NCBI GenBank assembly: GCA_951406725.2
Contig: OX597835.1
Span: forward strand, 41,850,001-41,914,000
DNA from: Octopus vulgaris
Taxonomy: Eukaryota
DNA: 64,000 bases
Direction: 5' to 3'
How positions within the stretch are numbered: the first letter of the stretch is position 1; every line of letters begins with the position of its first letter. The translations under genes were made by a program, and so were the position numbers. Below the pieces are notes generated by a model. The model did no database searches, was not told the DNA's origin, and worked only from the letters and a program-made list of their open reading frames with translations. Shown here piece after piece: positions 22,346-63,722 of this stretch.

Positions 22346-22626
22346 GTAAGTTGAGATTATTTTAAAGAACTGTTAAAGAAGTTTTGTTTGAAATAATTGA
22401 TATCAGATAATCATTCTGGAGCGGGGCCGGGGTGACCATTTTACCTTGATTGTAAAATTTTCATTTTATTCATTTTTCATGCGTTAATTGTCCCCGCATG
22501 TATGTTTGTCCCCTCTATGTCGGCCCCTTCTGGGCAATAAACAATCAACTTATTTCATCAACCTTGAAAGAATGAAGTGCAAAGTCAACCTAGGCAGAAT
22601 TTGAATTGATAACAGTAACAATAAGC

Positions 22627-24952: not shown

Positions 24953-25254
24953 CACATCTTGTTGCCGATGTGCTTCTCTACTAGAAACAACAACAACTCA
25001 GTCCATTTCATTTTGTTATTGCTTTTTTTGTTTGTAGCATGAATAACAACAATAACAACAACAACAATAATAGTAATAATAAATCCTTTCCACTATAGGC
25101 ACAAGGCCTGAAATTGTGGGGGGATGGGGAATGTCAATCGCATCAACTGGTACTTGATAATTTGTCGACCCCCAAAAGATGAAAGGCAAGGTCGACCTCA
25201 GCGGAATTTGAACTCAGAAAGTAAAGACGGATGAATAATAATAATAATAATGAT

Positions 25255-28663: not shown

Positions 28664-29056
28664 TGAGGAGGCCAGGATAACATCTGCAAGAGTCCGGAGA
28701 GATTTAAAGAAGAATGTAGCAATCAAGAAGGTGAATCTCAGTGACCTTTTTGTGTGCACAGTTTGTGACAGACGATGCCTTTCTTTTGCTGGGCTCAAAT
28801 CTCATTTGAGGACCCATGGAAAACGAACCTCCACTAACTACTTTGCCAACATACCTGTGCACACCTGTCAATGCTGTGCATGCTATAAGATCTGCAATTG
28901 TAATGGAGGCCTCAAAAGACATTTTAAGATCCAAACCGGTTAATCAGTCTAAGTGGGTGTCTGGTTTAAAAGCCACATCAGATGCCATAATGAAACTGAG
29001 GTTTAGGGACAAGAGGTGGTCAGGCTGTGCATAAGGAGTAGACAACCACTATCTTT
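28664..29056 (+). mobile_element. Probable LINE 3' end carrying two C-terminal C2H2-like fingers, embedded in (ATGT)n
   Basis: CTVCDRRCLSFAGLKSHLRTH and CACYKICNCNGGLKRHFK; no TGEKP linkers; resembles RTE-group ORF C-termini. Confidence 0.55.
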
Positions 29057-29970
29057 GTATGTATGTATTGATGTATGAATGAATGTATGTATGTATGCAT
29101 GCATGTATGTATGTATGTATGTATGTATGTATGTATGTATGTATGTATGTATGTATGTATGTATGTATGTATGTATGTATGTATGTATGTATGTATGGAT
29201 GGATGGATGGATGGATGGATGGATGGATGGATGGATGGATGTATGTATGTATGTATGTATGTATGTATGCATGCATGCATGGATGGATGGATGGATGGAT
29301 GGATGGATGTATGTATGTATGTATGTATGTATGTATGCATGCATGCATGCATGGATGGATGGATGGATGGATGTATGTATGTATGTATGTATGTATGTAT
29401 GTATGCATGCATGCATGCATGCATGCATGCATGCATGGATGGATGGATGGATGGATGGATGAATGTATGTATGCATGGATGGATGGATGGATGGATGTAT
29501 GTATGTATGTATGTATGTATGTATGCATGCATGGATGGATGGATGGATGGATGGATGGATGAATGTATGTATGTATGTATGTATGTATGGATGGATGGAT
29601 GCATGCATGCATGTATGGATGGATGGATGGATGTATGGATGGATGTATGTATGTATGTATGTATGTATGTATGTATGTATGCATGCATGCATGCATGGAT
29701 GTATGTATGTATGTATGTATGTATGTATGTATGTATGTATGTATGTATGTATGTATGCATGCATGCATGCATGCATGCATGCATGGATGGATGGATGGAT
29801 GAATGTATGTATGTATGTATGTATGTATGTATGTATGTATGCATGCATGCATGCATGGATGGATGGATGGATGGATGGATGTATGTATGTATGTATGCAT
29901 GCATGCATGCATGTATGTATGTATGGATGGATGGATGGATGGATGAATGTATGTATGTATGTATGTATGT
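29057..29970. repeat. Compound tetranucleotide microsatellite (ATGT/ATGG/ATGC)n, about 0.9 kb
   Basis: Direct reading. Confidence 0.97.
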
Positions 29971-30529
29971 GGAGGACTTAAACAACATGCAAAGGTACAT
30001 GAAGCCCAGTTACAACTACAGCTGGCTATTACCAGTAAAGGTTTTAGTTGCCAATTTTGTATAATACATTGTAGATCTTTAGCTGGGCTAAAAAGTCACA
30101 TTTGATCACAGCACCAGTAACAGTTAAGCTTCGTGCAATGGCCATACTCGATAACGAGGGGGCAGCCATAATGTATGTATGTATACGTGTGTGTGTGTGT
30201 GTGTGTGTGTGTATGTATATATGTATAAGGTGCATATTGAAAGAAATCAACAGGCGGTTATTTTTGGTGTTCAACCCTAGGTCAACCCATTCCACCCTAA
30301 AATGTGAATGAATCTAATTAAACTTCACATGTGAGAATTTGCGACGTTCTTTATCTCTTCATAACTTTCATTGAAAATTCCTGCATTTTAAGGAATTCTT
30401 CTATATTTATGATATTTAATCATATTTCCCTGTTGTCTTTGTGAAGAACCGCTTGTCCCTGGTGGTATCTGAACTGGGAACACAAAGAATCAGAATAAAC
30501 ACCACAAGGCACCCAGTTTCAATATTTCT

Positions 30530-31860: not shown

Positions 31861-32241
31861 GAGAGAGAGAGGGTGAGGGAGGGGAGTGGAAGGGAGAGTA
31901 ATGAAGAAGAGAAGACAGGAAGCTGGAAGACACGCAATATATTTTAAATATTAATTCAAATAGATTTATGGCTCTGCAATTGATGCGATGGATTGTCTGG
32001 CAATGGAAGTGTGGCTGAATTGTACCTAAAGCTTCCGGTTAGAACTCTACCTGTCAACAATACAGGATAATAGCCATTGGCAGCATGGACTGAATGGAAG
32101 GTGCCCCCGTCAGACTCTTGTGAGACTAAATGGGAGCTGCTTCTGTCAGAACCCCTGTGCAACTGAGCAATTCAGTCTGGGGTCCACTCCATTTGGGAAA
32201 GGGCCCAGAAAAGTGACATTAAACTCATCCATGCAATTCTT

Positions 32242-32655
32242 ATTTCTTTATTGCCCACAAGGGGCTACACACAGAGGGGACAAACAAGGACAGACAAATG
32301 GATTAAGTTAATTATATCAACCCCAGTGTGTAACTGGTACTTATTTAATCAAACCCGAAAGGATGAAAGGCAGAGTCGACCTCAGTGGAATTTGAACTCA
32401 GAATGTAAATCAGACGAAATACCTATTTCTTTACTACCCACAAGGGGCTAAATACAGACAGGACAAACAAGGACAGACAAATGGATTAAGTCGATTATAT
32501 CGACCCCAGTGTGTAACTGGTACTTATTTAATCGACCCTGAAAGTATTGAAAGGCAAAGTCAACCTCGGTGGAATTTGAACTCAGAACGTAAAGACAGAC
32601 GAAATACTACTAAGCATTTCGCCCGGCGTGCTAACGTTTCTGCCAGCTCGCCACC
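32242..32655 (-). mobile_element. SINE B dimer with 17-bp TSD
   Basis: TCATCCATGCAATTCTT at 32225 and 32658; internal junction at GGTATTTCGTC (32423-32413). Confidence 0.85.
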
Positions 32656-32894
32656 TTTCATCCATGCAATTCTTGGACAGGAAACTGTACCTGTCAGGAC
32701 ATTTCTCCAAATTATATCTGTAACCCACAAAGAGAAGAGAATAAGTCAATGCAGCAATGAAAAATCTTATTTTTCATTTTAACCCAATTTTCATGATTAA
32801 AAATGAAAAGATTCCTTGATGATCAGCATTTGATGTTAATTTTATGTATAGTAAAATGATGGACCATTTCATAATTAGGATAAGTATAGTAAAA

Positions 32895-35283: not shown

Positions 35284-38200
35284 GTTAGTTAGTTAGTTAG
35301 TTAATTTGGCTCAAAAGCAAATAGCAAGGCCATGTAGGGGGACATGGAGTTAAGTACAGGGTGGTGTTCATGTAAAGAGTTCAGGCCACTTGAGGTCAAG
35401 GTAGGCTTTGAACAAAGCGGTCGTCGGCATCTTCACCATCTCGTCTGGCAGCTTGTTCCACGGATCCGCAACCCAGACGGAGAAAGCTCCTCTCCTTCGA
35501 TTGAGATGAAATCGTCGCAGGTAGAGCTTTTCAGAATGACCCCGCAGCCGACGCTCCGGGGCAGGAGTGAAGAACAGCTCTTTCGAGAGGTTACACTTCC
35601 CGCTTATGATGTTGTGGGCGAGAATGAGATCACCACGGCGGCGGCGTTTTTCAAGAGAATAAAGGTCGAGCGTCCTCAGCCTTTCTTCGTAGGACAAATT
35701 TTTGAGACCATGAACCAGGCGGGTAGCCAGCTTCTGGACTCTTTCGAGGTGCTGTATGTCTTTGAGGAGATAAGGAGAAGAGGCTTGAATCCCATACTCC
35801 AATATGGGTCTCACCAGCGTGACATAGAGTGGCAGGAATATGGCTGCTGTGAGCACTCCGAATGACCGTCGAATCAAAAACAGAATTCCGCGCGCTTTGT
35901 TGGCAGCATGGACGCACTGGGCCGAAGGCGAAAAGGAGGAATCCACCAAGATACCCAGGTCCTTTACCTGATCGGTCCTCTCCAGCAGCAGACGACCCGG
36001 CTCGAAATCAAGTTGAGTTGTAGGAGTAGAGCCGACAGGCAGATGACAGCACTTTGACACGTTCAGACACAGGTCCCAATCGTTAGACCACTTCCAAATT
36101 TGGTGGAGGCATCGACGAAGATCCTCTATACTACCGCGAGGAGCGACCAGTTTGATATCGTCGGCAAATAGAAGGGTGTGTTGCGTGAGGTCGTCGGGCA
36201 AGTCATTTATGAAGACTAAGAACAACAAGGGCCCAAGCACTGAACCTTGAGGCACGCCACTGCTCGCACTGGAGACGTCGGACCGCGAACCTTAACTTGA
36301 ACTTGGAAGGAGCGATCTGAGAGGAAGGCACCAACCCATCGTACAATATCCGGATGGAAACTATATGCTTGAAGCTTGACAAGTAGTAGGCGGTGGTTTA
36401 CCGAGTCAAAAGCTTTGGCAAAGTCCAATAAAACGATGTCAACAGCATCACTATCATCGAGGATGCGCGTCACCAATTCTTCCATTACTAGTAAGTTGGT
36501 CAAGCATGATCTCTTCGGCACGAAGCCGTGTTGGGAATCAGTGATCGAGGCTGTGCTTAGGAGGTGGAGCATCATACTTTTCTTAAGGATGGTTTCGAAC
36601 ATCTTGCTGATTATTGATGTAAGGGAAACCGGTCGGTAGTTAAGCGGGTCTTCGCGGCTCCCTTTCTTGAAAATTGGGCAGATTATCGCTGTTCTCCAGT
36701 CTGCAGGTATAACACTCGTCGCCAATGACATATTGAATAGTCGTGTTAAGGGCTCGCAGATGACCGGAGCCAACGCTTTGATAACCCGTGGGTGTATGCC
36801 GTCAGGGCTGTGACCCTTGTTGACATCGAGGCCTTGAATAACACGTTTGACTTGGTCCCGCGTGATGATCAATCGAAGCATTGGAGGTACCGATCTATCA
36901 AATGGAGGGGGTTCACGACCATCATCTTGTTTGAAAATAGTTGAAAAAGCCTCGGCAAATAATTGACTCTGTTGATAAGGGTCCTCAATCGATACGCCTG
37001 TTGAGTCTACCAATGTTACAATCTGGTTGTTCAAGCGGGAATTCCGCTGGACATGGGCAAAGAAGGTTTTTGGATTGCTACTGGCATTTGCCGCGATTTT
37101 GTATTCATAACTGAAGCGTTCTTTCTTTTCAATTTTCACGGCTCGGTCTCGTTGAGTTTTGTACACCTCAAAAGCTGCAGTCGAATCCAGATTTTTGAAT
37201 TCAGCCCAAGCAATATCTCTGAGTCGACGTTCTCGTTTAACCTTCTTCGTCACCCAGGGCTTGTGTTTCTTCCTCTTGGGAAGTCCAACGGGAACTGCCT
37301 GGTCAGTCAAACAGATTACATATGCTTTGAGGGATGACCATAGTTCGTCAACTGAGGACAACGTCATCAGGGAACGCCAGTCCAGAAGCGCGGAAGCCTC
37401 GGTTAGAATTTCAAGATTAATTGCAGAGAAGACTCTACGTGGCAGCGAAGTAATCGTGGGCGTGGAAAAAGTTGTGTGCATGACGAACTTCAGGACCGCA
37501 TGATCACTTTTGGCAAGAGGGGCGCACACAGATACGTCTGACACTGATCTTGGATAGCGGGAGAATACCAGATCTAGCATAGATGGCTGCTGCCCAAACC
37601 GATGCCTTGTCGGATATTCAACATGTTGCGATAGAAAACAATCTTCAGCCACGTCAAGAAGGGCCTGGCCGAACCGGGAAGATGTTGTACAAATTGATGC
37701 GGGCCAATCGATCATGGGAGCGTTGAAGTCGCCTAGTACCAAGCAGTCATGCGAAGCTGAAACGAATCTTATCGCCTCGAGTAGATGAGCATCGTCCTGG
37801 AGGTCGGCTAGAGGCGGCCTGTAGACAGCCAACACGGGCAGGCAAAACTCAGATAGGCTCAGCTTGCAATAGACGGCATCGAATTTGGTTGTAGGTTGAG
37901 CATTTGTGGGTAGAATACCGCAGGACAGTTTGTGCTCAGACTTAACATACACAGCAACACCTCCACCTCGCCTTTTTCCTCTGTCACATCTGAAAAGGAC
38001 GTAGCCCTGCAGGTGGATCTCTGACTCCTTTACTGCTGGAGTCAGCCAAGTCTCGGTGATAGCTATCACATCAGGGGAGTCGCGTAGGGCCAGTGTAAAT
38101 AGTTCACTGAACTTTGGGAATAAGGAGCACGAGTTGGTGTAGACGATGCTGAGCTGTGAAGTCTGAGGGGCGGGAGTTGGGGAACAAGCAGAATAAAAGG

Positions 38201-38373
38201 CATCAGAGATAGCATCGTTGACGGGGGTATCAACTTCACTTCGATTTGCCCTCACATCACTTTCCCTGTCAGCACTACAGCATGGGACCAGAGGTAGGAC
38301 TTGATTATCTGTCCATCTTGGATTCGTAAACCCTTCTCTCCCATTTGTTTCCTCATCTTTAGCTCGGATATCA
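35284..38373 (-). mobile_element. CR1-group LINE, 5'-truncated, ORF2 (APE endonuclease + RT) nearly intact
   Basis: ITETWL, GDFNAP, SDH, YRPVSLTS, QHGF, LDFAKAFDSV, PQGSVLGP and FADD motifs; (AACT)n tail; GGTTT duplication at 35279/38374. Confidence 0.93.
35368..38373 (-). pseudogene. LINE ORF2 split by one frameshift near 36292
   Basis: ORFs 36216-38399 and 35368-36255 join as FQVQV(N)GSRSDVSSASSGVPQG if one base is restored. Confidence 0.85.
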
Positions 38374-38906
38374 GGTTTCTTGGCGTATAGGTTCCCCACC
38401 TGGATGGGACGGCGGTCCGTCGCAGGTGAGCTGCAAGATGCAGGAGGAAAGAGTGAGAAGTTCCGCCATTACCTTCTGCCAGAGCTTAGGTGTTTCGCTC
38501 ATAAACACACACACATCACCCGGTCTGAGATTTGAACCCATGATCCCTCGACCGTGAGTCCACTGCTCTAACCACTAGGCCATGTTCCTTCACACAGACA
38601 TGTATGTATAGGTAAAGGAATAGTTATCTTCTCGAGTCATGCTGACTCACAAGGGCTGTTTTCCCCAGTTTCATGGCATATAAATTCCCCACTTCTCTCC
38701 TGGATGGGATGCTAGTCTGTTGCAGGAATACTCCCTTTTGCCAGCTGAGTGGACTGGAGTAGCATGAAATGAAGTGTTTTGCTCAAGAACACAACACGTT
38801 GCCTGGTCCAGGAATCGACACCACAATGTTACGATCACGAGTCCAACATCCTAACCACTAAGCCATATGCCTCCACATGTATGCATATATGTGCATGCAT
38901 GCTTTT

Positions 38907-40525: not shown

Positions 40526-41562
40526 ATTAGTATGGTAGCCCCAAATTTTCTAATTGTCAAATGAATCTATTCGATTTCATACAACAGATTCGAATGTGTT
40601 TCGAAATTTTCTATACCAGTGTAGTCTTTTTTAATTGAGGTAATCGTAACTATATTTTTGTAGAAATTAATAATAAAAGAGTTAACCTTCAAGTATGGAC
40701 TGCAAGTAAATAAATAAATAAATAAATAAATAAATAGAGCGAAACCTAGCAACCAGACGCAACACAGTCACAGAAAATAAAAATTCATCCGCTGACCGCA
40801 TCACAGTCGTAAAAATAATATCGTTCCGCTACAGTATAAACTGAAAATTACTTTTCGAAATGAATTGTCAATTTGTTATTAACTTTACGTTATTAACTTT
40901 TATATCTTTTCGATGAGAAATATTTTGTTTTTTTTTATTATGCAACTTTTATAAGTTAATAAAATAATGCTGTAGAGAAATCTGCCATAATGAAGTTTAA
41001 TAACTTACTTTTATGCATTTATCGTTTCGTTTCGTTTATTCAAGATAACCAAGTCTAGTTTTGAATAACTTTCCCATTTCCAGCTTCCCAATATTTCCAA
41101 TCTAGCACTTATATGTGCATACAACGAAAGATGATCACCCACCTGAGTTATTGGCTGTTACTTTAACTGGATCGCCCCTGGGACATCGAAAGACAGCAGT
41201 TGACCTCAGCAGGATTCGAACTCTGAACATAAACGGCCGTAACCACGCACCTCTCTATTTTCCGAGTTCCTCCACGCCTATTCGAACTGCAGCTGATGTG
41301 TAAGTATTATTATAAATATATCGAATTATTATATTTTACTCAAAGCAGGGTTTATATCTAGGAAAAGGTTTGCCTAATGTTTCCTTCGGTTTTAAATTAC
41401 AAAATGATGTGATATAGCTGCTATTTCTAGTAAATCAATTTACCTTGTCCAAGCTCCGTCGTTCACTTTGATACTTTGGTCAATGGGTCAAGATTTAAAC
41501 ATTGACCGATACTTTTGTTTAGTTTAGAATATTCTCAGAAATACATTGGAACGAGCGAAGTG

Positions 41563-41979
41563 GGATCTTTTCGGTTTGACCGGCAGTTTTTTAAAATAAT
41601 TTCCACGTAACTAAACACTTTAAAACTTCTTATGCTGGTAGAATGTGTTTATAAAACATCATTTTCTCTTGGCTTTATTGAGAAAATTCTATGGTTTGTA
41701 AGATATTTGTTGTCTTTTCTTCAATTTCTGCAATTTCAACCAATCAATGACGTCTATTGAGGTAAAAAAAAACATTCTGTGCCGTATGAATATGTCCCTC
41801 GTTTAAGAAACACATTGGGTTTATTTACATTTCTGAAGAAAAAAAAGATACCCTTCCCCCACCCCTAACCCTAACCCTAAAACATTGAAATGCAATAGAT
41901 CGATACTAGGGTTATAATTATGGGTGACAATTTCATATGACACCGCTAGAAAAAACTGCCGTTCAAACCGAAAAGGTCC
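41563..41979 (+). mobile_element. Merlin-like MITE
   Basis: Same TIRs; TSD GCGAAGTG/ACGTAGTG. Confidence 0.85.
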
Positions 41980-43893: not shown

Positions 43894-44494
43894 TATATGA
43901 TATTATATATTATGGTGCTGCACAAGCACAAATTGAAGAGGTGCTTCAGCCTGCAGAAGTAAAGATTGAATGATATAATTTTAATATCCAATGGAAAAAT
44001 AAAGTTCACTTGTTCAGGTAATGGTTTATATCTACAAGTCTTTTCAGTATTGAAATATAATAAAATGTCTACTTTTGCATCTCCACGTTTTTAAGTATTC
44101 CCCAATGTAACTTTTGCCTTTTCTTTATTATTTCAGAACAAAAGATAACATTGTTTACATGAGAGACATCATGAATATTTGTCATTTCTTTGAGACTACA
44201 TGGACAGAATAGATGTAACCTTGATTGCTATATAAGTCTATGGAAGAATTACTGTGAAATATTTTCTCTCTAATTGAGATTATTCATAAAATTTTCTCTC
44301 TTTCACTGAGTAGAATGGTATACAAGACGATTTTGTATTCTAATGAAATTTGGATGAATATCAAAGGATTAGACAACATCTTTAGATATTGATAAAGATC
44401 GTATTTGAGTGAAATTAAACAATAATTTATCTAGGGATAAAATAAAAGTGGAAAGAAGAGAATATCAGTTCATAGGGGTTGGAGAAGAAATAAT

Positions 44495-45421
44495 ATGGAG
44501 AATGAATTATGTGAGAATGATTTGAGAAAAATAAATTTTATTGATGAGATGGAGAAAGAGACAGAGAAAACGTCATACCAATGTGATATCTGTAAACAGT
44601 TATTCTCTGAAAAATGTAACATTACGACACACAAATGCATTCTTACAGGAGAGAAACCATATCATTGTGATATTTGTGGTAAAACATTTTCTCGTGTGAT
44701 TACCTTAACAAACCATAAGCGTGTTCATACTGGAGAGAAGCCATATCTGTGTGATATTTGTAATAAACCATTCTCTCATTTAATTACACTAACTAACCAT
44801 AAACGTATTCATACAGGAGAAAAACCATATCATTGTGATATTTGCAGTAAATCGTTTTCTGATGGGTCTAATTTAATGAAACACAAACGAGTTCATACTG
44901 GAGAGAAGCCGTATCACTGTAATACCTGTGGTAAATCTTTCTCTCAAACAAATAAATTAGCTAGTCATATACACACTCATACAGGAGAGAAACCATATCA
45001 CTGTGATATCTGTGGTAAATCTTTCTCTCTTATAACTACCTTAACTAACCACAGACGTGTTCATACAGGAGAGAAACCATATCACTGTGATATTTGTGGT
45101 AAATCATTCTCTACCCCAGGTAACTTAAATAACCACAAACACATTCATACAGGTGAGAAACCATATCGCTGTGATATCTGTGATAAGTCATTCTCTGATC
45201 CAGGTAACTTAACTAAACACAAACATATTCATACAGGAGAGAAGCCGTATCACTGTGAAATCTGTGGTAAATCATTCTCTCGAAATGGTACTTTAACTAA
45301 CCACATACGTATTCATACAGGAGAAAAACCATATCACTGTGCTATCTGTGGAAAATCCTTCTCTCAAAGAAGCCACTTAACTAGACATGTGTGTGGTTGT
45401 ACAGAACAGTTACGGCATTAA
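44495..45421 (+). CDS. Tandem C2H2 zinc-finger protein, 308 aa (8 canonical fingers, plus a degenerate first finger and a C2HC-like last finger)
   Basis: CxxC-x12-HxxxH repeats joined by TGEKPY linkers; acceptor TTTCAG at 44136 suggests a 5'UTR-bearing last exon; AATAAA at 45577. Confidence 0.93.
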
Positions 45422-46214: not shown

Positions 46215-46232
46215 TATTTAAGAAGACTAAAA

Positions 46233-46460
46233 CGGCGGTGAGCTGGCAGAATCGTTAGCACGCCGGGCAAAATGCATATTCGTATTTCGTCTGCCGTTAC
46301 ATTCTGAGTTCAAATTCTGCCGAGGTCGACTTTCATCCTTTCGGGGTCGATTAAATAAGTACCAGTTACGCACTGGGGTCAATATAATCGATTTAATCCG
46401 TTTGTCTGTCCTTGTTTGTCCCCTCTGTGTTTAGCCCCTTGTGGGTAGTAAAGAAATAGG
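46233..46460 (+). mobile_element. SINE family B (tRNA-like head GGCGGTGAGCTGGCAGAA, core TTTCATCCTTTCGGGGTCGATAAAT), tail type i
   Basis: GAGTTCAAATTC B-box; flanking repeat TATTTAAGAAGACT; other copies at ~22872-23098, ~34444-34650, ~39230-39458 and ~16945-17110. Confidence 0.85.
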
Positions 46461-49910: not shown

Positions 49911-50387
49911 CTATTACATTATTTTTTGTTTTGTTTTTGTGCCCGGATCAGACACGGAACATTCACTATGTGAATTTTCCGAGGCCTCTCCTTCACCATA
50001 TTCGTTTAGAGGAAGTTGTTTTACACCTATTACACTATTTTTGTTTTGTTTTTGTGCTCGGGTCAAACGCTATAGTTTGACTTTATATTCTTATATATCA
50101 TAAAACAGTACATTACTGGTCATGGCATACAACTGACCAGAAGAGCACTGTCCGTTTCACCCTGGTTATTGCAATTTGGTAATATTGACGACTCTTCAGA
50201 CGAGCAGGCTGGAAGCACATAACCGTTTCATACGCAAAAAGTATATATCGCTGCTATTATGCAAAAGTGTCGTAAGTCTAAAACGTTGCTTTTCCAGAGA
50301 AAGAAAAACTAGAAAAATAGTTTCACCATTTCACTTCTTTTTAAATTAGCAACAGTTTTAGCTTAGCAACAAATACGTTGTTGGAAA

Positions 50388-50662
50388 GGTGGCGAACTGG
50401 CAGAAACGTTAACACGCCGGGCGATATTCTTAGCGGTATTTCGTCTGCTGTTACGTTCTGAGTTCAAATTCCGCCGAGGTCGACTCTGCCTTTCATCCTT
50501 TCGAGGTCGATAAATTAAGTACCAGTTACGCACTGGGGTCGATGTAATTGACTTAATCCGTTTGTCTGTCCTTGTTTGTCCCCTCTATGTTTAGCCCCTT
50601 GTGGGTAGTAAAAAAAAAAAGAAACGTTAGCACGCCGGGCGAAATGCATTGTGGTATATCGT
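50388..50662 (+). mobile_element. SINE B plus a second SINE B head interrupted by the Tx1-like LINE
   Basis: Second head 50621-50662 stops at GGTATATCGT. Confidence 0.8.
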
Positions 50663-52021
50663 ACGTCTGTTACTGAAAATTTATTGATGGAGTGTGTTCG
50701 TGAGTTTCTATTAATTGTTATATCTCTTGTTGTGCCTATTGTTGGACTTATTGTTGAAAAAAATTGTAGTATAGTTTTCTGTTCGAAAGCTATCTGTAGT
50801 TTTCCCCTGGGAAAACATTAGTTGCCGGCAAGATGGCGAAAAGTTCGTGTTCTTCGTCGGGGGACGAATCGATTGAAAGAGAAGCTAAGAAAATAGAAAG
50901 CTTAATTTTTGACAACGTTTCTGATGTGTCGGAAAGCGAATTTCCAACATTACCAAGTGTTACGAACACCAAAAGGAAGACAGAAAAAAAGGGACCATCC
51001 AATATGAAGAAAAGAAAAGTTTTGTGTCAGAGGCTGGTGGTGGAACACGACAGCTGTCAACTGACATAAAAGAATTATTAAAATATAAAGATATGATAAC
51101 AGAACGAAATGGAATTGTCAAAGTAGAAATACCAGAAGAAGAATTCAGTCATTATTTTTAAGACCTTTTGCTTAAAAACACGTAAAATTGATAAAATAGG
51201 TGAGCAAAAAATTGAAAAATGTCTAAAACCCATCTGGCAGGACATTACGTATCTAGCCAGAGGGAAGAAGTTTGGAACCATCGTGGTGAGGTTCAAGAAT
51301 GCAGAAACGGCACAAAAACACTATAAAATCTTTAGAGTCGGACGACACTATGTTAATCCCAATCTACATGGAAATGAGAACATTAAACGTGAGAATACCT
51401 AGAATTCCGCCCGGAGTAAACCCTATGGTTTGATGGCGGCGGTCCTGGAAAACAAGGAAGATAGTATTAACCTCCTGCAGGCTACCGACAGAGAAAATAC
51501 TTATTGGACAGGTCTAACGCTTAACATCATATTACAGGCTGACCAAAAGATTTTAGAACAGCTCCCAGAAATTGTAGAAGTAGGGGAGGAAGTTCTAAAT
51601 ATTTTTGTTGAGGGTCGTAAGCCCCGATGTTTCTAGTGTGGCCAACTGGGTCACATTAAAAAAATATTGTAAAGAAGGTGAAGAAGAATCAGACGGCGAG
51701 GAGGAAGAAAGAGAGAGAGAGAGAGAGAAACTGAAGGGAAAATAAACAATAAAAGGAAAGAAGAAGGATCGAACCAGCAAAAGCAGAGCGAGCCGAGACC
51801 AAAATGAAAAAAAAAACCCAGCCAAGAGAGACAGACCGAGGAAGGCGGATGGGGAGACGAACAGAGGAATAAATGCTCTATACAGTAAAAATGAAGATTT
51901 AATGCGGGAAATAAAACACCCAAAATCAGCAAATTCGATTAATTGAACTGTCAGAGAAATATAAAAACTAACGAATTTTACGATTTGGACGAAAAAAAAC
52001 GTACAAAATGTTGTCAAACAC

Positions 52022-52410
52022 ATACTCTTTTACTTGGTTCAATTATTTGACTGTGGCCATGCTGGAGCACCGCCTTTAGTCGAGCAAATCGACCCCAGGG
52101 CATATTCTTTGTAAGCCCAGTACTTATTCTATCGGTCTCTTTTGCCGAACCGCTAAGTAACGGGGACGTAAACACACCAGCATCGGTTGTCAAGCAATGC
52201 TAGGGGGACAAACACAAACACAAACACACACACGCATATATATATACGACGGGCTTCTTTCAGTTTCTGTCTACCAAATCCACTCACAAGGCATTGGTCG
52301 ACCCAGGGCTATAGTAGAAGACAGTTGCCCAAGGTGCCATGCAGTGGGACTGAACCCGGAACCATGTGGTTGGTAAACAAGCTACTTACCACACAGCCAC
52401 TCCTGCGCCT
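52022..52410 (-). mobile_element. SINE A inserted in the Tx1-like LINE
   Basis: Homology to 499-885. Confidence 0.85.
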
Positions 52411-52820
52411 ATAGAATTGGGTCTCAACATGGAGACTTGATTTTCGCCAATCCATGTTTGAAGGATTACCATCTCGGACCCTAAGTCAAGAAAAGGTGGA
52501 GAATTCCTCTCCACAAAATGCCCCGATGTAAAAGGTAAGTCATGTCTATTCACATTGATTGTATAAATGTTCGTGGCCTGATGTCGAGTTGGAAGCAAGG
52601 GCGCTTCTTAGATGACACCAGGTCGAGAAATTTGGATGTAATTGTTGCCACGGAAACCCGGTTGAAGGGGCCAAGGGATCTGCTCCCCCTCCTGAACGGC
52701 TACGAGAAATACGTTTCTCCGAGTCGGGCGGAAGATGGGGGCGGTGTGTTGGTCATACTAAAAAGAAACCGGGTAGCCGAGAAAAAGTTGGGTTTTTTTC
52801 TGACCCAGAAGGAAGGTTGG

Positions 52821-53250
52821 GGATCTTTTCGGTTTGAACGGCAGTTTTTTAAAATAATTTCCACGTAACTAAACACTTTTAAACTTCGTATACTGGTAGA
52901 ATGTGTTTATAAAACAACTTTTTCTCTTGGCTTTATTGGGAAAATTCTATAGTTTGTAAGATATTTGGGTTTTTTTTCTTCAATTTCTGCAATTTCAACC
53001 AATCAATGATGTCTATTGAGGTGAAAACATTCTGTGCCGTATGAATACGTCCTTCGTTTAAGAAACAGATTGGGTTTATTTACATTTGTGAAGAAAAAAA
53101 GATACCCTTCCCCCAACCCCTAACCCTAAAACAGATTAACCCTAAAAGAGATTGAACGGCAGTTTTTCTAGCGGTGTCATATGAAATTGTCACCCATAAT
53201 TATGACCCTAGTATCGATCTATTGCATTTCGATCTGTTTTAGATTTAGGG
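52821..53250 (+). mobile_element. Rearranged Merlin-like MITE (right arm inverted) inside the Tx1 ORF2
   Basis: Left TIR intact; 53155-53250 is the right arm in reverse orientation. Confidence 0.8.
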
Positions 53251-54207
53251 TGTCCGCTCTTTCCACTTTTGTATGTGATGGCTCTCGAACCCTTACTGCG
53301 AAGGTTAAGTGGCATCCCGAGAGAACCAGGTCTAGAGGAGTTTGTTAGGGCTTCCGCGGATGATATCACTATCAGCGTAACCTCAGTCGCACGCCTACGT
53401 GAAGTGGGTAAGACTATTGGGACTTACGAGGGGGTGGCAGGAGCAAAGATTAACCGGGAAAAGTCGGTCGGCTTGCAGCTCGGCACCTGGGTTGGCAAGT
53501 CGGTGGCTTCAGACGGCGTTGTTGGGCGCTGGACGGAGGGACCGGTTAAGTTGCTGGGAGTCTGGTTTGGACCAGGCCTCCAGATAGAGAAGAACTGGAC
53601 GGAGGTATTGAGCAGGGTGGCTGCAGTAGTCAAGACCTGGTCTTGGCGGTGGCTATCCCTGAAAGGGAGGGCGGAGGTGGCCAATGTGTTTACCGCCTGA
53701 CCGTCGTGCCCTGTCCGGATTCGTGGTCGATCATGTTGGAGAGACAGCTCTTTCGCTTTTTGTGGAAAGGCAGGTCGCCACTTGTGAAACGCTCTCTCTA
53801 CTGTCAGAAGCCTTTAAAGGGAGGTTTAGGGATGCCTTGGTTAATGATGCGCAGACATGCGTTGAGGTCGAGGCACCTCTGGATTCTCCTGGATAGTGAA
53901 CGGGTGTGGTCTCTGCTGGCCAGACAAATGTTCCCCGAGTTCAAAAGTTTTTGCGAACAGGAAGCCTGTTGTTCTCGTAGACCGAGGTCGAGTGAATGGT
54001 ATAAAAAGTGCCGTAAGGCCCTCTTGCTATTTCCGGCGCTCGAGCAACGCCAGCGGTGGGGGTTCCACATGGATTTTATATAGTGGGTTGAATGCGACGA
54101 TGGCCTGGGGTCGACTCTAGGTCTCGGATTTATTCAACTGGACAGCCTGTTTCACCGTACATTCGGGTTGAGAACGTTGGACAACTTCCAAAAGTCCTTA
54201 ACCTGAC

Positions 54208-54432
54208 GAGGTCCTGGAAACAACTGTTAAGCCCTGGATAGACAGTGTATGCAACAGAAGGCCATATGTGTTTCAGTAAGACTCTGCACTATCACACATG
54301 GCTCTAGTAACACAGGAATGGATGGCTGAAAATTTTCACGATCACATAACCCCAAACTTTTGGCCTCCTAATTCCCCAGATCTCAATCCATTGGACTATT
54401 ACATGTGGAGCATTGTTGAGAGACAGGTCAAT
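54208..54432 (+). mobile_element. Internal DD37D transposase fragment without TIRs, inside the Tx1-like LINE
   Basis: Near-identical to 58774-58996. Confidence 0.85.
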
Positions 54433-55067
54433 GGACACGGTAAACGTCAGTCGCCGACCTGTCCAAAATGAGGTGGGGACAGGGAAACCGTCCCTCACGC
54501 TATTGTCCAGTGTCCGGAGATAACTGAAATGTGGGTTTTATGCTGACCACCTATTGTCCGGCGAAGGAAGAGTACAGCTGTCGACTGAGTCAATTATAGA
54601 AATTGACCCACCGGGAGTTTTAACGAACGAAGGTAAGAATTGTTTTCTCACGGTTGTAGCAATAGCGAAAGAGGCAGAATGGAAGACTAGGATAAAAGGA
54701 ATTTATAAGACAGGCAACTTTATCTCTTTCCATTTGAAAAGGAAGCTGTGGCTGGAGAAGAGGTGTCTGTCGGAGTGTACGTTCCAAAAGAGATGGAAGC
54801 ATGTTGCACGAGTGTTGTGCGTGCAAGGAACCGTGTGAATAGACGAGGGAAAAAAAAGAAAAATAGGTACCAGCGGTATATTGGGGCTTGTGGGGTCGGA
54901 GCGGGGCCTGATCATCGCTTCATTTGTATCGTAATTCCATTCGATTTTTTATATATAGTATTTAAATTTTTAGAGTCACATTATATGTAGAATTATATCG
55001 CTTCACTGACCCCATCAGTTGTTCTGTCCATTTCTATGTTTGGCCCCCGGTGGGCAATAAAGGAATT

Positions 55068-55605
55068 GGTATTTCACCCGTCGCTACATTCTGAGTTCAA
55101 GTTCCACTGAGGTCGACTTTGCCTTTCATCCTTTCGGGGTCGATAAATTAAGTACCAGTTACGCACTGGGGTAGATGTAGTCGACTTAATCCGTGTGTCT
55201 GTCCTTGTTTGTCCCCTCTGTGTTTAGCCCCTTGTGGGTAGTAAAGAAATTGGTATTTCGTCTTTCTTTACGTTCGGAGTTCAAATTCCGCCGAGGTCGA
55301 CTTTGCCTTTCATCTTTTCGGGGTCGATAAATTAAGTACCAGTTACGTACTGGGGTCGATATAATCGACTTAATCCCTTTGTCTGTCTATGTTTGTCCCC
55401 TCTATGTTTAGCCCCTTGTGGGTAATAAAGAAATAGGTATTTCGTCTGCCGCTACGTTCTGAGTTCAAATTCCGCCGAGGTCGATTTTACCTTTCATCCT
55501 TTTGGGGTCGATAAATTTAGTACCGGTTGCGTACTGGAGTCGATCTAATCGACTGGTCCCCTCCCCCAAGATTTCGGGCCTTGTGCCTAGAGTAGAAAAG
55601 AATAA
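55068..55605 (+). mobile_element. Three head-less SINE B units with 184-bp period
   Basis: Units start at GGTATTTC at 55068, 55252 and 55436. Confidence 0.85.
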
Positions 55606-56092
55606 TACTTTGTTGGGTGCATAAAATCCAAACTCCATGCATGTGTGATATTTTCAGTCAGAAATATTTTTGCAAAACTGTCGTATGTGCCATTTACTAA
55701 GCTTTTGATAAATGGTATCTCAAGCAGCTGGAGATACGATACTTTAACCAAAAGAACCGGCTATTGCAAGAAAAATTAAATATTGTAAAACAAAAAAAAA
55801 AAAAACAACGCATTTGGCCAAATTTGGACATACGATAGTTTAACATAATAGCAATGCTAAGGAGATTCTGGCTGGAAAGACGTTGGCGATGGTGAAACGA
55901 AAGGGAGGTAAACAGGGAGGGTAAAAAACATATTTTGTAGGGAGAGAAGAAGAGTTATTTCCCATGGATTGATGTTAAACTGTTAATTGCGTGTGTGTCT
56001 GTAATTATATGTTGGTTGCTGCTCCAAAAGCGAACGTGACTACGTTGCCAACACGAATTTCTGCTTTTGAAGGTAGCATCTGAATTGTTTTG

Positions 56093-56508
56093 GGATCTTT
56101 TCGGTTTGAACGGCAGTTTTTTTTAAATAATTTCTACGTAACTAAACACTTTTAAACTTCGTATACTGGTAGAATGTGTTTTTTAAAACATCTTTTTCTC
56201 TTGGCTTTATTAAGAAAATTCTATAGTTTGTAAGATATTTGTTGTTTTTCTCTTCAATTTCTGCAATTTCAACCAATCAATGACGTCTATTGAGGTAAAA
56301 AAACATTCTGTGCCATATGAATATATCCCTCGTTTAAGAAACAGATTGGGTTTATTTACATTTCTGAAGAAAAAAGATACCCTCCCCCCCCCTAACCCTA
56401 ACTTTAAAACAGATTGAAATGCAATAGATCGATACTAGGGTCATAATTATGGGTGAAAATTTCATATGACACTGCTAGGAAAAACAGCCGTTCAAACTGA
56501 AAAGATCC
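56093..56508 (+). mobile_element. Merlin-like MITE
   Basis: Same TIRs; no TSD evident. Confidence 0.85.
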
Positions 56509-56828
56509 CAAGATGATGATAATGGTGGAGATGTTGATGGCGGTGGCAGTTGTGGTGGTGGTGGTAGTTGTGGTGGTGGTGGTGGTGGTTGTGGTATGAG
56601 CATGATGATGGTGATGATGATGATGATGATGATGACAGCAACAGCAACAGCAACGCTATCCCTCACTTCAGTGAAGACTATCCCAGCAGCTATTTAAGTT
56701 CGAGGGTAACCAACGTTAGATTCACCCGTCTGAGTGAACGACGTGGACACAGCGATGTGAACTGCCCCCTCATTCAATCAACTACCATAGAATAAAAACA
56801 ATTGGATCACCAATTGCTTTATAACCTA

Positions 56829-58015: not shown

Positions 58016-59275
58016 CAGGGTGCATAAGGTATTTGAGGACATACCTTTTTGGGGGTCATTGCTGCATTTTTTGCTCACTCTGTATAATCTTTGATTCAGA
58101 AAATAATAATGGCAGACCCTCAGCTTACTCAAGAAATAAAGAGGTATGCTGTTATTGTGGTTATAAAGATGAGCATAGCGATTTAGAAATATCTTGAGTT
58201 TTAAAAGTTGCCAGATCTTTTGTTTACAAAGTTTGTAAGGAGCTGGAGATTGAAACGTATCACCAGTATCAAAGCATAAAAAGCATGCTAAATGCTCTGA
58301 AATCACCAGAACACCTGAATTTATCCAGCAAGTTCAACAGACCATTGATTACAATCCCAGAAAGTCCATGGGGTCAATAGCAAAAGATCTCCATGCGTCA
58401 GAAGGAGGAGTCAGAAATGTTGTCCACGAAGACATCAGATATAAGTCTTATATGATGAGGAAAGGTCAATTAGTCAGAAAAAGCAAAAGAAGAATCACTA
58501 CATCAGATCTAAAAGTCTCTTAAACAAACTGAAAAATCCAGCAGAAGAAGATTTGATTTGGTTTTTCTCAAACAAGAAAAACTTCGACCAAGATCAAAAA
58601 GTTAACAGAAGAAATGACAGATGGTTATGTGCAGACCCTTCTGAAGTTCTAAGTGTTATGCATTAAAATTTCCCTTCAACTGTCATGGTTTTAGGGGGAT
58701 CAGCAATGAAGGACATGTGATGTCTCCTTACTTCTTTCCAGAAGGCCATAGAGTTAACTCTGTTGCCAACATTGAAGTCCTGGAAACAATTGTTAAGCCC
58801 TGGATAGACAGTGTATGCAACAGAAGGCCATATGTGTTTCAGTAACACTCTGCACTATCACACATGGCTCTAGTAACACAGGAATGGATGGCTGAAAATT
58901 TTCACGATCCCATAACCCCTAAAATTTGGCCTCCTAATTCCCCAGATCTCAATCCATTAGATTATTACATGTGGAGCATTGTTGAGAGAGCGGTCACCTA
59001 TAACACCAAAGATTCTTTGAAAGCTGCCATGGTCAGAGTAATGTCCAAAATGAACCAGGACCACTTGATTTGAGCATGTAGATGATTTAGATCTCATATA
59101 GAAGCAGTTGTTGAAGCTGAAGGTGGTTTTATTGAATAACATTATAGAAAAGAAAGTTTATATTTATCCTCATTGCATTTTTTGATAAATGAAGTCATCT
59201 GTTATTATATATGTTTTTTTTTTTGGGGGGGGGGTTATAAACATAAGTCTGTCCTCAAATATCTTACACACCCTG
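58016..59275 (+). mobile_element. Tc1/mariner DD37D (maT-type) transposon, full length, with a pseudogenised transposase
   Basis: TIRs CAGGGTGYRTAAGRTATTTGAGGACA, TA flanks, WPPNSPDLNPLDYY motif, 37 residues between the last two catalytic positions; stops and frameshifts. Confidence 0.9.
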
Positions 59276-60056: not shown

Positions 60057-61354
60057 GATATACCACAGAGATTTTAGAACCAGGTACTTTGCTAGCTATA
60101 CACAACGCATTGTTTCTTTACATTTTAAATAGAAAGACGAACAGACAGATATCGATGCACCTCATTATCTCTTATTCAGCTAATTCTTTATACAGGTCAC
60201 CACACAGCCAGCTGTTCGATCTGCTATTATTTCTATCACCGACGGGGATTCGAAACGCAATCTGTGCCAATTCCATTTCCTGGGTCAAACAGCAGGAGGT
60301 TGGTGGTGGTGGTATGTCTGGTCTATCATCTATCAATAAATATATACGTTTTTTCTTCAGCTGATTCCGTTCGTTGCTACTTTGGCAAAGTACTGAGAGA
60401 CAGGCTGTTCTGAGAATAATGGAAGACCAAAAAAAAATATAATAAAGTAATCCAGAGTTGTCTCCCATGTATTACAGACATACATACACTATACATGTGT
60501 GTGTGTGTTCAAAGTAATGATGGTAGTATTATATTTTTTTTTAAATCAGTGACGATCGATACAATGATCAATAGAATTTTTTACAACAATCAACATGATG
60601 GCTTGTGGTAAGAAGCTTGTTTCCCAACCACATGGTTTCGGGTTCAGTCCCACTGCGTGGCACCTTGGGCAAGTGTCTTCAACTTTGCCTTTCATCCTTT
60701 CGAGATCGATTAAATAAGTACCAGTTACGCACTGGGGTCGATATAATTGACTTAATCCGTTTGTCTGTCTTTGTTTGTCCCTTCAGTGTTTAGCCCCTTG
60801 TGGGTAGTAAAGAAATATATATATATATATATATAAATTAATTAAATTAGAGATAAAACCACTATTAGGCAAATCAAACAGTGAAAAACATAAACCAAAA
60901 CATAAAAATAAAAATAATTAATATAATTTACAAAATATATAAAATATAAAATTTAAAATTTAAATTATTTAAATTTTAAATTATTAATTTATATTTATAT
61001 TTATTTTTTCATTATTATATAAATGTACAGAGGAAAAGGTCACTCAACACATTTAGAAGGAGTTACATGTATTATTTAAAGCAGTTTGATTCGGTTCCAT
61101 GCTATTTCAAGTATTGCAGGCTCTTAAAGGGAGCCCCACTCCTTCAGGCTTCTGCCTGTAATTGAAAGGCGCTAACCTCGGTGCATTCTGTGTCATGCTG
61201 AATCTCGCTGAGAAGTATTTTAAGGATATGCATGTCTGTGGAGTGCTCAGCCACATGCACATTAATTTCATGAGCAGGCTCTTCTGTTGATCTGATCAAC
61301 TGGAACCCTCATTGTCGCAACCAATAGAATGCCAGTATATATATATATTTTTTT

Positions 61355-61748: not shown

Positions 61749-61787
61749 ATATTATTATTCTATTATTATTATTATTATTATACAACG

Positions 61788-62790
61788 TGGTCAGTGGAAT
61801 TTTCGCTATGGAGTTTTTAGGGGATTAGTGGAGGGAAAATATGACAATGTAATTGAGGAAATTCTAGGCATCAAAAGGATCAACTAAATGGTCTTTTCCA
61901 GAGTACTTTCAGGCTGAGGCCTGTGGATAACGGCCAGAAATTCCTGGCCTGGCAGCGCCTGCCAGTACGAGACATGCTTTACCGACATGGAAGTGCTGTC
62001 AGATGGACCTGAACAAGGTGTGCACAGGGCAACGAAACCATCCGGCATGCACTTGTCTAGTGTCCTTTCATTACAGACTTGTGGAGCTTTGTTGAGATTG
62101 CCCCTACTGCCTTCTTTTGGACAGGAAGGAAAAGCAGTTTTCTTCTGTCTGGTGGCCATGGCGAAGGAGGTAGTGTGGTGGATGAGATTGAAAGGACTGA
62201 AGACAGATACTTTCCTCTTTGGCCAAGCCCTCATCGACTTTTTCAAGTTCTACCTGAAAAGGAAAGGGAGAGTAGAGAGGTAAGTGAGAGTGAAAGAGCA
62301 GTGCATGCCATCAAAGTGACACTGGGGTAAAACATACGAAGCCCGATATACCCATCATAACTACCTATCCAATAAGGGTGCACCAGGTACATTCATCACA
62401 ACCATATGTGCACGACGTGGTGATCATATAGCAAGATAAACAGTGCATGATCTTGCAGGTGGGGCCCCCAATAAATTTGTTGAAAGGTAAGTGAATGTGG
62501 AGAGGATGGCCCATGTGAAAGGGGCTACTCTGAACTTTCGTTTGTAAACTAGAGGAGTTTGAGAAGGAGAGAGGCGCCTGCTGAAGTGCATCTGATGGTT
62601 GGGGTAACCAGAATGTGTGGGGTTCCTCGTTTGTCCTTGTGAAGAACTACCCCCTTTTGGGGAACTTTTATTGCTTAATTGTTTTTGTTTTTGTTACTTA
62701 TTGTATACACAGCATTGTTCAACATCCCACTTGTCCCTTGTATTTTATCGTCTCTGTTTTGTGTTCAGCCCTTGTGGCCAATAAAAGCAA
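61788..62790 (+). mobile_element. Second Tx1-like LINE, 3' fragment
   Basis: FFCLVAMAKEVVWWMRLKGL is homologous to CFLTVVAIAKEAEWKTRIKGI of the first copy; ends CCCTTGTGGCCAATAAA. Confidence 0.65.
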
Positions 62791-63283
62791 GTATCATCAT
62801 CATCATCAGCATCATCAAGTCAGGCAGAACCATTAGCATGCTGGACGAAATGCTTAGCAGTATTTTGTCTGCTGCTATATTCAGAGTTCAAATCCCACCA
62901 AGGTCAACTTTGCCTTTCATCCTTTCAGGGTCGATAAATTTAGTACCAGTGAAATACTGGGGTTGATGCCATTGACTAGTCCTCTCCCTCCAAATTTCAG
63001 GCCTTGTACCTTTAGTAGAAAGGATTATTATTATTATTATTATTATTGAGTAAGGCTGTGATCTAGCAGAAGCTTTAGCACACCGGGCAAAATGCTTAGC
63101 TGTATTTCGCCCGTCACTACGTTCTGAGTTCAAATTCCGCCGCTGTGGACTTTACTTTTCATCCTTTCAGGGTCGATGAAATAAGTACCAGTGACGCACT
63201 GGAGATGATATAAGCGACTAGCCCCCTTCCCCCCAAAATTTTCAAGGCTTTGTACTTAGAGTAGAAATTATTATTATTATTAC

Positions 63284-63722
63284 TGAGTGAGAGAGCAGTG
63301 CATGTCATCAAAGTGACACTGGAGTAAAACATACGAAGCCCAATATACCCATCATGACTACCCATCCAATAAGGGTACACCAGACACATTCATCACAACC
63401 ATATGTGCACGACATGGTGATCATATAGCAAGATAAACAGTGCATAATCTTGCAGGTGAGGCCCAGTTAGAATTTTTTTCCGGCTGTGTAACCCATCCCA
63501 CACGAAAGGTTCCTGAATAAGAATTGTTTAAGGATGATGAACAAAACATCCATGTTTCCAGATGTGAATTATCCAAACACCAAAGAATTCCTCTCAACAC
63601 ATAGCTATGGTGCTCCCCCACTACTTCTGCTCGTTATCAGAGATGCACATATCGTCAGCCACTAAGAGACATGGTCAAACAACTGACAAGTAAATCTGTG
63701 GTATTGAGCAGAATATTTGCTG
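63284..63722 (-). mobile_element. Unclassified interspersed repeat with (AAT)n tail; second partial copy at 62287-62468
   Basis: Direct homology between the two copies. Confidence 0.6.

What the first reader, a model, noticed from the sequence alone, without database searches (positions are those of the whole stretch)
50388..55605. Apparent SINE-targeting Tx1-like LINE and a self-targeting SINE that carries its tail
Seen: the LINE begins right after a SINE B head that stops at GGTATATCGT (50653-50662), and SINE B sequence resumes at GGTATTTC (55068) right after the LINE end. Two more head-less SINE units start at the same motif (55252, 55436; exact 184-bp period). The independent dimer at 32242-32655 has the same junction. 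The LINE 3' end (TCTATGTTTGGCCCCCGGTGGGCAATAAAGGAA) closely resembles SINE tail i (TCTGTGTTTAGCCCCTTGTGGGTAGTAAAGAAA). The last unit carries the other tail (ii), as expected for the original host copy. Known: Tx1-clade LINEs are often sequence-specific for multicopy targets (snRNA, 5S, tRNA arrays, transposons), and many SINEs share 3' tails with their partner LINE. Inference: the LINE targets a fixed site in the head of its own parasite SINE, and tail-i SINEs home into each other to build tandem arrays.
Basis: partly seen in the sequence, partly recalled or inferred. Interest (0 to 1): 0.8.

Follow-up and report, generated by a model that had tools for sequence, protein, structure and literature searches.

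The report
Octopus retroelements homing into SINE head
In an octopus-type genome, one short repeat (a SINE) is split at a fixed base by a decayed long retrotransposon and three head-less SINE copies that share that retrotransposon's tail, which likely means the retrotransposon's machinery prefers to insert into its own parasite, though most copies land elsewhere.

Summary
The whole 5.2-kb composite (50385-55603) lies inside one target-site duplication (12 of 13 bases; chance about 3 in 10,000). So one tail-ii SINE was the host and everything between was inserted: a broken L1-group, Tx1-like LINE and three tail-i SINE bodies. The LINE and two of the bodies end just before SINE base 48 (GGTATTTC); the third ends before base 20. 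The LINE's last 49 bases match tail i. Array units are no closer to each other than to dispersed copies, which argues against plain duplication. The tail-to-GGTATTTC junction recurs in 136 and 164 raw reads of one organism and in 76 and 89 contigs of two others. Targeting is not exclusive: 3 of 12 tail-i SINE ends and 1 of 3 Tx1-like 3' ends in the window use the site. The LINE-only fraction genome-wide was not obtained. Best reading: Tx1-like machinery with a preferred site in its own SINE's head, with homology-guided 5' joining giving head-less arrays (inferred). Closest precedent: crocodilian Tx1-Mar and SINEU targeting a Mariner. New variant of a known kind; interest 0.5.

The parts
50372..50384 (+). 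Left copy of the 13-bp outer target-site duplication
   Evidence: 12 of 13 identical to 55604-55616; 42 of 142,626 random non-microsatellite pairs, and 105 of 198,799 of all pairs, do as well
50385..50434 (+). Head of the SINE B host (bases 1-47; base 1 = 50388). Part of it may derive from the first inserted copy
50435..50624 (+). Tail-i SINE body (base 48 to end, with an expanded A run) whose 3' end joins SINE base 20
   Evidence: a tail-to-base-20 junction also appears in 2 reads of run X22 (table 5c)
50625..50673 (+). SINE head piece, bases 20-67; 50653-50673 is a diverged copy of bases 48-67 (possible duplication made by the LINE insertion)
   Evidence: score 65 against shuffle mean 14.5, 0 of 500
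50674..55067 (+). Decayed Tx1-like LINE: 5' UTR, broken ORF1 from ATG 50833 with a broken CCHC knuckle near 51625-51670, ORF2, 3' UTR
   Evidence: ORF1 matches the ORF1 of a relative, E 1e-8; ORF2 pieces match a profile of 55 relatives
52022..52413 (-). A different SINE family (SINE A) inserted in the LINE
   Evidence: many BLAST copies in the window
52542..52769 (+). N-terminal remnant of the AP-type endonuclease (NVRGL ... TETR)
   Evidence: profile E 2.5e-5; pairwise E 0.002; no Pfam hit
52817..53250 (+). Inverted-repeat element at the place where most of the endonuclease and the RT N-terminus are missing
   Evidence: other copies near 6381, 7177, 16000, 41562 and 56089
53245..54203 (+). 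RT C-terminal half and thumb region
   Evidence: Pfam RVT_1 E 5e-7; 57-63% identical to P0001-P0003
54208..54430 (+). Tc1/mariner-type transposase fragment inserted in ORF2
   Evidence: Pfam DDE_3 E 4e-6, below the curated cut-off; 95% copy at 58774-58996
55018..55067 (+). LINE 3' terminus shared with SINE tail i
   Evidence: joined to ORF2 in one internally deleted contig each of runs X1 and X2 (joint 54593 to 55040, 24 letters on the short side)
55068..55251 (+). Head-less tail-i SINE unit (base 48 to end)
55252..55435 (+). Head-less tail-i SINE unit (base 48 to end)
55436..55603 (+). 3' part of the original tail-ii host SINE
   Evidence: tail ii followed directly by the right duplication copy
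55604..55616 (+). Right copy of the outer target-site duplication
32225..32674 (-). Independent SINE dimer [1-end][48-end], both tail i, inside one 17-bp duplication (32225-32241 / 32658-32674)
   Evidence: 17 of 17 identical
46232..46460 (+). Tail-i monomer whose tail runs into GGTATTT outside any SINE; the left duplication copy reads GATATTT
   Evidence: 17 of 19 duplication
61785..62793 (+). 5'-truncated Tx1-like LINE of another family with a tail-i-like end, followed by an (ATC)n tract and not by the SINE site (start approximate)
   Evidence: profile E 2e-12 and 4e-13; tail score 36, 0 of 500 shuffles
22415..22548 (+). 3'-UTR-only fragment resembling the LINE end, followed by TATTTCATC of an antisense SINE B body
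   Evidence: score 46, 0 of 500 with the tail; 34, 5 of 500 without the tail

Best explanation
A Tx1-like LINE and the SINE subfamily that shares its 3' tail (tail i) likely use the same endonuclease and reverse transcriptase, which likely prefers, without being restricted to, a cut just before base 48 (GGTATTTC) of the SINE's own head. Shown: a single tail-ii SINE was split, and a LINE plus three tail-i bodies sit inside it. The LINE and two bodies end at the same base and one ends at base 20. The junction recurs many times in three organisms. Inferred: (1) target-primed reverse transcription starts at the nick before base 48. (2) A SINE cDNA entering a SINE pairs with the host head at its 5' end, so no second head is laid down and each event adds one 184-bp head-less unit. 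(3) Each insertion leaves GGTATTTC intact behind it, so the site can be hit again. (4) SINE RNA read through from such arrays ends in target sequence, could pair with the nicked primer and would reinforce homing; copy 46234, with GG in place of the GA of its left duplication copy, is the one hint. Other tail-i copies went into TA/AAT microsatellites and unique sites, by a looser preference for TAT-starting sites or through sister LINE families.
For: One outer duplication around the composite, chance about 3e-4. The LINE has SINE sequence at the same site on both sides. It holds 31 runs of four or more T on the sense strand, so it could not have moved inside a Pol III SINE transcript (Pol III termination at T runs is established knowledge). 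3 of 12 tail-i ends lie at the exact site against about 1.3e-4 per insertion by chance: P 5e-10 overall, and 1e-3 for the 1 of 9 outside the flagged array (the 17 sites are my count from the alignment). Adjacent units rank 43 and 34 of 66 tail-i pairs in distance, and every non-consensus state they share also occurs in 2-7 other copies; 136 (X22) and 164 (X23) reads cover junction base 55067 away from their ends, against 4,228 and 3,191 reads in the four listed head-type loose-end rows (about 3% and 5%; chance about 0.01%). 76 (X1) and 89 (X2) contigs carry the A variant at that base. One X2 contig aligns from LINE-only UTR 54932 through GGTATTTC to 55075. Relatives at 42-43% amino-acid identity end in a motif like tail ii (0 of 200 shuffles as good for 5 of 7 loci), tying both SINE tails to this LINE group.
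Against: Most tail-i ends (9 of 12) and 2 of 3 Tx1-like 3' ends in the window are not at the site. One search does not separate LINE from SINE upstream of the junction. Reads with tail plus target align more easily than tail alone, so the shares are biased upward. 16 X1 contigs leave the reference at 55066 into mixed flanks. The X2 contig has only 8 letters past the junction (under the tool's 31-letter rule), is 1 of 16 listed rows (4,758 more not shown), and may be the orthologous locus. The left 48-67 copy matches the right side at only about 15 of 21 bases (my count by eye). The two dimer units rank 7 of 66 at non-CpG sites. No intact endonuclease of this family was examined.
Confidence: 0.6

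Rival explanations
1. This LINE family is strictly specific for SINE B base 48. The dispersed tail-i SINE copies were moved by sister Tx1-like families that target microsatellites.
For: The window copy sits exactly at the site. One X2 contig runs from LINE UTR into GGTATTTC. The microsatellite-flanked LINE at 61785-62793 is another family (205 of 421 aligned positions identical at the ORF2 end). Tx1 families with different targets coexist in crocodilians (PMC4494074).
Against: The fragment at 22415-22548 resembles this LINE's UTR and is not at base 48. 16 X1 contigs leave the tail into mixed flanks (LINE or SINE not told apart).
Confidence: 0.2
2. The junction arose once or a few times. SINE multimers then spread as units by Pol III read-through, and the LINE joined by template switching or recombination between the homologous tails.
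For: The dimer has one outer duplication, which fits transposition as a unit. Two of the four array units have no run of four T. Dimeric and multimeric SINEs are known (PMC10702118). Read counts cannot tell independent events from copies of one master.
Against: The LINE has SINE head on its 5' side and base 48 on its 3' side, which needs an insertion in place. Units differ right after GGTATTTC and in tail variant. A second junction type (base 20) sits in the same host.
Confidence: 0.13
3. Plain DNA-level tandem duplication of a SINE segment (SINE-derived satellite), with chance nesting of the LINE.
For: The period is an exact 184 bases. SINE-derived satellites exist in reptiles (PMC10702118).
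Against: The host has tail ii and the inner units have tail i, so they cannot be copies of it. Units are as distant as dispersed copies. A chance hit at one base is about 1.3e-4.
Confidence: 0.05

Closest known systems
Crocodilian Tx1-Mar LINEs and SINEU (Kojima 2015, PMC4494074; parts 1-4 of 5 of the text read)
   Same: A Tx1 LINE and a SINE share a preferred site in an abundant repeat. Preference ranges from 13% to 90% of copies. Tandem SINEU-3 copies are attributed to sequential insertion at one site.
   Different: There the target is an unrelated Mariner DNA transposon, no LINE sharing the SINEU-1 3' end was found, and tandem copies sandwich a duplication. Here the target is the SINE itself, the tail is shared, and the added units lack the head.
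Xenopus Tx1L in Tx1D; Keno in U2 genes; Kibi and Koshi in microsatellites (as summarised in PMC4494074; primary papers seen only as citations)
   Same: Sequence preference for multicopy targets in the Tx1 clade; microsatellite insertion resembles the other copies in this window.
   Different: None of those targets is a SINE mobilised by the same LINE.
Octopus OR1/OR2 tRNA-derived CORE-SINEs (Ohshima and Okada 1994, seen only as a citation in PMC4824008 and PMC4758252) and octopus L1-Tx1 families (PMC13282606: 80 families, 56 Mb, 13 recently active; PMC8967140)
   Same: An abundant octopus tRNA-type SINE and the L1-Tx1 class are both on record. SINE B may be OR1 or OR2 (recalled lead, untested).
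   Different: The passages read report no partner LINE, target preference or nesting for them ('target' and 'nested' occur 0 times in PMC13282606).
SINE-derived satellites and SINE multimers (Vassetzky 2023, PMC10702118; passages read)
   Same: Tandem units made of part of a SINE with SINE termini at both ends; insertion into the same locus is mentioned as a route.
   Different: Here the units are heterogeneous, end in a LINE-derived tail, differ in tail from the host, and share the junction with a LINE.

Membership tests
Tx1 clade (L1 group) non-LTR retrotransposon | RT of the L1 group | tested here: met
   Window fragment hits Pfam RVT_1 and groups with P0001-P0003, P0094 and P0162 (98/99). 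P0003 scores 174 bits on human L1 ORF2p against 88 on R2. The window fragment alone is too short to decide (E 0.85).
Tx1 clade (L1 group) non-LTR retrotransposon | RT groups with characterised Tx1 elements rather than with L1 | tested here: inconclusive
   P0003 scores 289 and 296 bits on two coral proteins automatically named 'Transposon TX1 uncharacterized 149 kDa protein' against 174 on L1. The tree held no L1, Tx1L or Keno reference and its base is open.
Tx1 clade (L1 group) non-LTR retrotransposon | AP-type endonuclease at the start of ORF2 | tested here: met
   Remnant at 52542-52769; full domain PF03372 in relatives.
Tx1 clade (L1 group) non-LTR retrotransposon | ORF1 with a CCHC zinc knuckle (feature recalled, from no call) | tested here: met
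   Broken knuckle in the window aligned to an intact one in a relative.
Tx1 clade (L1 group) non-LTR retrotransposon | Family-level target preference (over 20% of flanks, the criterion in PMC4494074) | tested here: inconclusive
   One certain copy at the site and one suggestive contig; the LINE-only fraction was not obtained. For the tail-i SINE, 3 of 12 ends in the window, 1 of 9 outside the flagged array.
tRNA-derived SINE (SINE2) | tRNA-like head with A and B boxes | tested here: inconclusive
   Box-like motifs read by eye; ARAGORN found 0 tRNAs and Rfam gave only 2 chance-level matches.
tRNA-derived SINE (SINE2) | Dispersed short copies with target-site duplications and a LINE-derived tail | tested here: met
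   More than 25 copies or pieces in 64 kb; 13-19 bp duplications at four unique sites; tails match LINE ends.
Octopus OR1/OR2 CORE-SINE | Sequence match to the OR1/OR2 consensus and the CORE domain | not testable with these tools
   No reference sequence was available; supplement searches gave nothing and file 1 was not searchable in two papers.
SINE-derived satellite | Units arise from one another (closer to each other than to dispersed copies) | tested here: not met
   Ranks 43 and 34 of 66; no private shared changes.

The most novel reading that the evidence does not exclude
An octopus Tx1 family has made its own SINE parasite its main target. Its endonuclease cuts the SINE head inside the Pol III promoter region, the SINE inherits that aim through the shared tail and homes into itself, and read-through SINE RNA carrying the target sequence feeds back on the targeting. 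The LINE gains about a million safe sites while breaking its competitor's copies, and the SINE builds head-less arrays by retrotransposition.
Probability: 0.3. Interest if true: 0.72.

Novelty: new variant of a known kind. Interest (0 to 1): 0.5.

Why it matters
Target choice in Tx1 elements is known for RNA genes, microsatellites and DNA transposons. I found no report of a LINE whose preferred target is the SINE it mobilises, nor of a SINE that builds head-less arrays by homing into itself (searches; subscription journals and Repbase Reports are not covered). If it holds, it names a partner LINE group for one of the most abundant octopus SINEs. It also gives a retrotransposition route to SINE tandem arrays and a testable case of a host-parasite loop between two mobile elements. 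SINE multimers and chimeric full-length SINEs in octopus annotations would then be partly insertion products.

Tried and rejected
No whole genome is held for the window, so the genome-wide tabulation could not be run directly. DNA pattern scans found nothing: tail i in viral contigs and metagenome contigs, SINE body in viral contigs. Protein scans of viral and metagenome contigs gave 0 confirmed relatives of 23 and 307 candidates. The closest proteins (P0001-P0003, P0087, P0094, P0162) came without DNA context. In the read lay SINE-head reads crowded the loose-end table (24 rows shown, 724 not), so LINE-only flanks were not seen. Depth at the ORF2 end mixes related families and is no copy number for this one. 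I tested whether the relatives' 3' UTR holds a whole captured SINE body: without the tail it was not significant (6 to 186 of 200 shuffles as good), and the SINE had no match in G001; rejected, only the tail-ii motif matches. No telomeric repeats lie in the relatives' arrays. A conserved stem-loop in tail i or tail ii was not supported (z -0.3 to 0.5); a hairpin around the target appeared in one of two copies folded (z -2.7 and -0.7). No earlier scan findings were returned.
Full report
Setting. The window looks like octopod DNA. It is AT-rich, with dense SINEs and microsatellites and a C2H2 zinc-finger ORF. The closest named relative of the LINE protein is from Argonauta hians (72% to P0003). 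This is an inference; no genome is held.

Observation. Every coordinate of the finding is right. SINE B has a shared head and body and two tails; the window holds 12 SINE ends with tail i and 10 motif hits for tail ii. GGTATTTC is base 48 of the SINE. The LINE (50674-55067) has a broken ORF1 with a zinc knuckle, an endonuclease remnant, the C-terminal half of RT and the end of ORF2. Three other repeats interrupt it, and it lacks most of the endonuclease and the RT N-terminus. Its last 49 bases match tail i (0 of 500 shuffles), while the stretch before them does not match the SINE body (146 of 500), so the tail is not a left-over SINE. In two other organisms one contig each joins ORF2 to this tail, and 47 and 49 raw reads cover LINE-only base 55010 where depth further left is lower.

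What is new. The whole composite lies inside one duplication, AATACGTTGTTGG at 50372-50384 and AATACTTTGTTGG at 55604-55616; 42 of 142,626 random non-microsatellite pairs match as well. The first head and the last, tail-ii, unit were therefore one SINE. Inserted in it are a tail-i body ending at SINE base 20, the LINE ending at base 48, and two more tail-i bodies ending at base 48. The LINE carries 31 runs of four or more T, so it cannot have travelled in a Pol III transcript and must have inserted in place. It has SINE bases 20-67 on its left and base 48 onward on its right. The dimer at 32242-32655 also sits in a single 17-bp duplication, which fits either homing or movement as a unit. Adjacent units are not closer than dispersed copies (ranks 43 and 34 of 66 tail-i pairs). 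They share no private changes and differ just after GGTATTTC. The dimer units do rank 7 of 66 at non-CpG sites.

How often the site is used. In the window 3 of 12 tail-i SINE ends are at base 48. One is at base 20, one runs into GGTATTT outside a SINE (46234), four are in TA or AAT microsatellites, two are at unique sites and one is in another SINE. Chance for the exact base is about 1.3e-4 per insertion, giving P 5e-10 overall and 1e-3 for the 1 of 9 outside the flagged array. Two more Tx1-like 3' ends are in the window. One of another family ends in (ATC)n (61785-62793). A 130-bp UTR fragment ends at TATTTCATC in an antisense SINE B (22415-22548), a motif close to TATTTCGTC at the main site.

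Other organisms. Twenty runs of six coded organisms hold 0.23-0.40 of the words of the LINE stretch; I laid three of those organisms (4 of 24 runs) on 54431-55105. In two raw runs of organism C (1,934 million letters each), 136 and 164 reads cover the junction base away from their ends, against 4,228 and 3,191 reads in the listed head-type loose-end rows. For a 2.8-Gb genome (the size given for O. vulgaris in PMC13282606; an assumption) that is roughly 200 or more junctions. In contigs of organisms A and B, 76 and 89 carry the A variant at that base. These counts do not tell LINE from SINE, nor independent events from copies of a master, and are biased towards target-bearing reads. Sixteen X1 contigs leave the tail into mixed flanks. 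One X2 contig aligns from LINE-only UTR through GGTATTTC (14 other letters and 5 gap letters over 54932-55075), but with only 8 letters beyond the junction, and it could be the orthologous locus. Two reads show the base-20 junction.

Relatives. A genome scan returned 20 loci, 42-43% identical in protein, on animal-type contigs within one MAG record. They form head-to-tail arrays of whole and 5'-truncated LINEs. Their 3' ends carry a motif like tail ii just before AATAAA (0 of 200 shuffles as good for 5 of 7 loci; 1 and 2 of 200 for the others). The SINE body without the tail does not match. Both SINE tails thus likely come from LINEs of this group.

Classification. The LINE is in the L1 group, and its closest intact relative scores higher on proteins labelled TX1 (289-296 bits) than on human L1 (174 bits). 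The labels are automatic and the tree had no characterised Tx1 or L1 reference, so Tx1 membership is likely but not formally shown. SINE B may be OR1 or OR2 (recalled, untested).

Mechanism. Shown: nested insertion into one host, a shared tail, a shared junction base, and recurrence. Inferred: a preferred nick before base 48; priming on the shared tail; pairing of SINE cDNA with the host head so that only a 184-bp body is added; renewal of the site after each event; and possibly read-through RNA that pairs with the primer. The order of events in the array cannot be fixed from one locus. Confidence 0.6; strict specificity 0.2; multimer masters 0.13; DNA duplication 0.05.

Comparison with print. 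The nearest case is crocodilian Tx1-Mar with SINEU (PMC4494074; parts 1-4 of 5 read), where LINE and SINE share a site in a Mariner and tandem SINEs arise by sequential insertion. Of PMC4758252, PMC4824008, PMC8967140, PMC8869645, PMC10702118, PMC3747384 and PMC13282606 I read matching passages only. I searched the supplements of three of them; one file each could not be searched in the first two, and it could hold SINE sequences. L1-Tx1 is known in octopus, but I saw no target described. Nine searches showed no LINE that targets its own SINE; Repbase and subscription journals are outside the library.

Verdict. A real feature and a new variant of Tx1-type targeting, less exclusive than first proposed. 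Interest 0.5; 0.72 if the LINE family proves dedicated to the SINE head (probability 0.3).

Noticed in passing
L001-L026 (G001 contigs C3-C19): Tx1-like relatives form long head-to-tail arrays (period 6.4-6.8 kb; 40 scored matches of 83 candidates), with intact ORFs, some 5'-truncated units, no poly(A), several 5' UTR types and no telomeric repeats. They sit on animal-type contigs inside a bacterial MAG. A 12-17 bp stretch after AATAAA recurs at array ends.
   Followed up: partly
L003:7310-7365 and equivalents; window 55556-55603: The 3' end of these distant LINEs resembles SINE tail ii, suggesting a second Tx1-like partner. Most tail-ii copies in the window sit in (TTA)n-type microsatellites.
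   Followed up: partly
window 35368-38468 (-): A LINE of another clade with long open frames (endonuclease and RT, 750 aa plus 307 aa), only 25% identical to the Tx1-like proteins.
   Followed up: no
window 44441-45421 (+): 326-aa open frame of tandem C2H2 zinc fingers.
   Followed up: no
window 52817-53250; copies near 6381-6793, 7177-7583, 15996-16623, 41562-41979, 56089-56509: Short non-coding element with terminal inverted repeats and internal CCCTAA-like repeats; one end is inverted in the LINE copy where about 1.9 kb of ORF2 is missing.
   Followed up: no
window 16942-17110 (-) and 60599-60815: Two truncated tail-i SINE bodies abut pieces of the other SINE family (SINE A).
   Followed up: no
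window 62286-62408 and 63286-63400: A third SINE-like repeat, one copy inside the second Tx1-like LINE.
   Followed up: no
window 4199-5729, 24195-25042, 29003-30095: Long minisatellite and microsatellite tracts that give spurious open frames.
   Followed up: no
window 19203-20123 (-): 306-aa open frame of unknown kind, possibly an exon.
   Followed up: no
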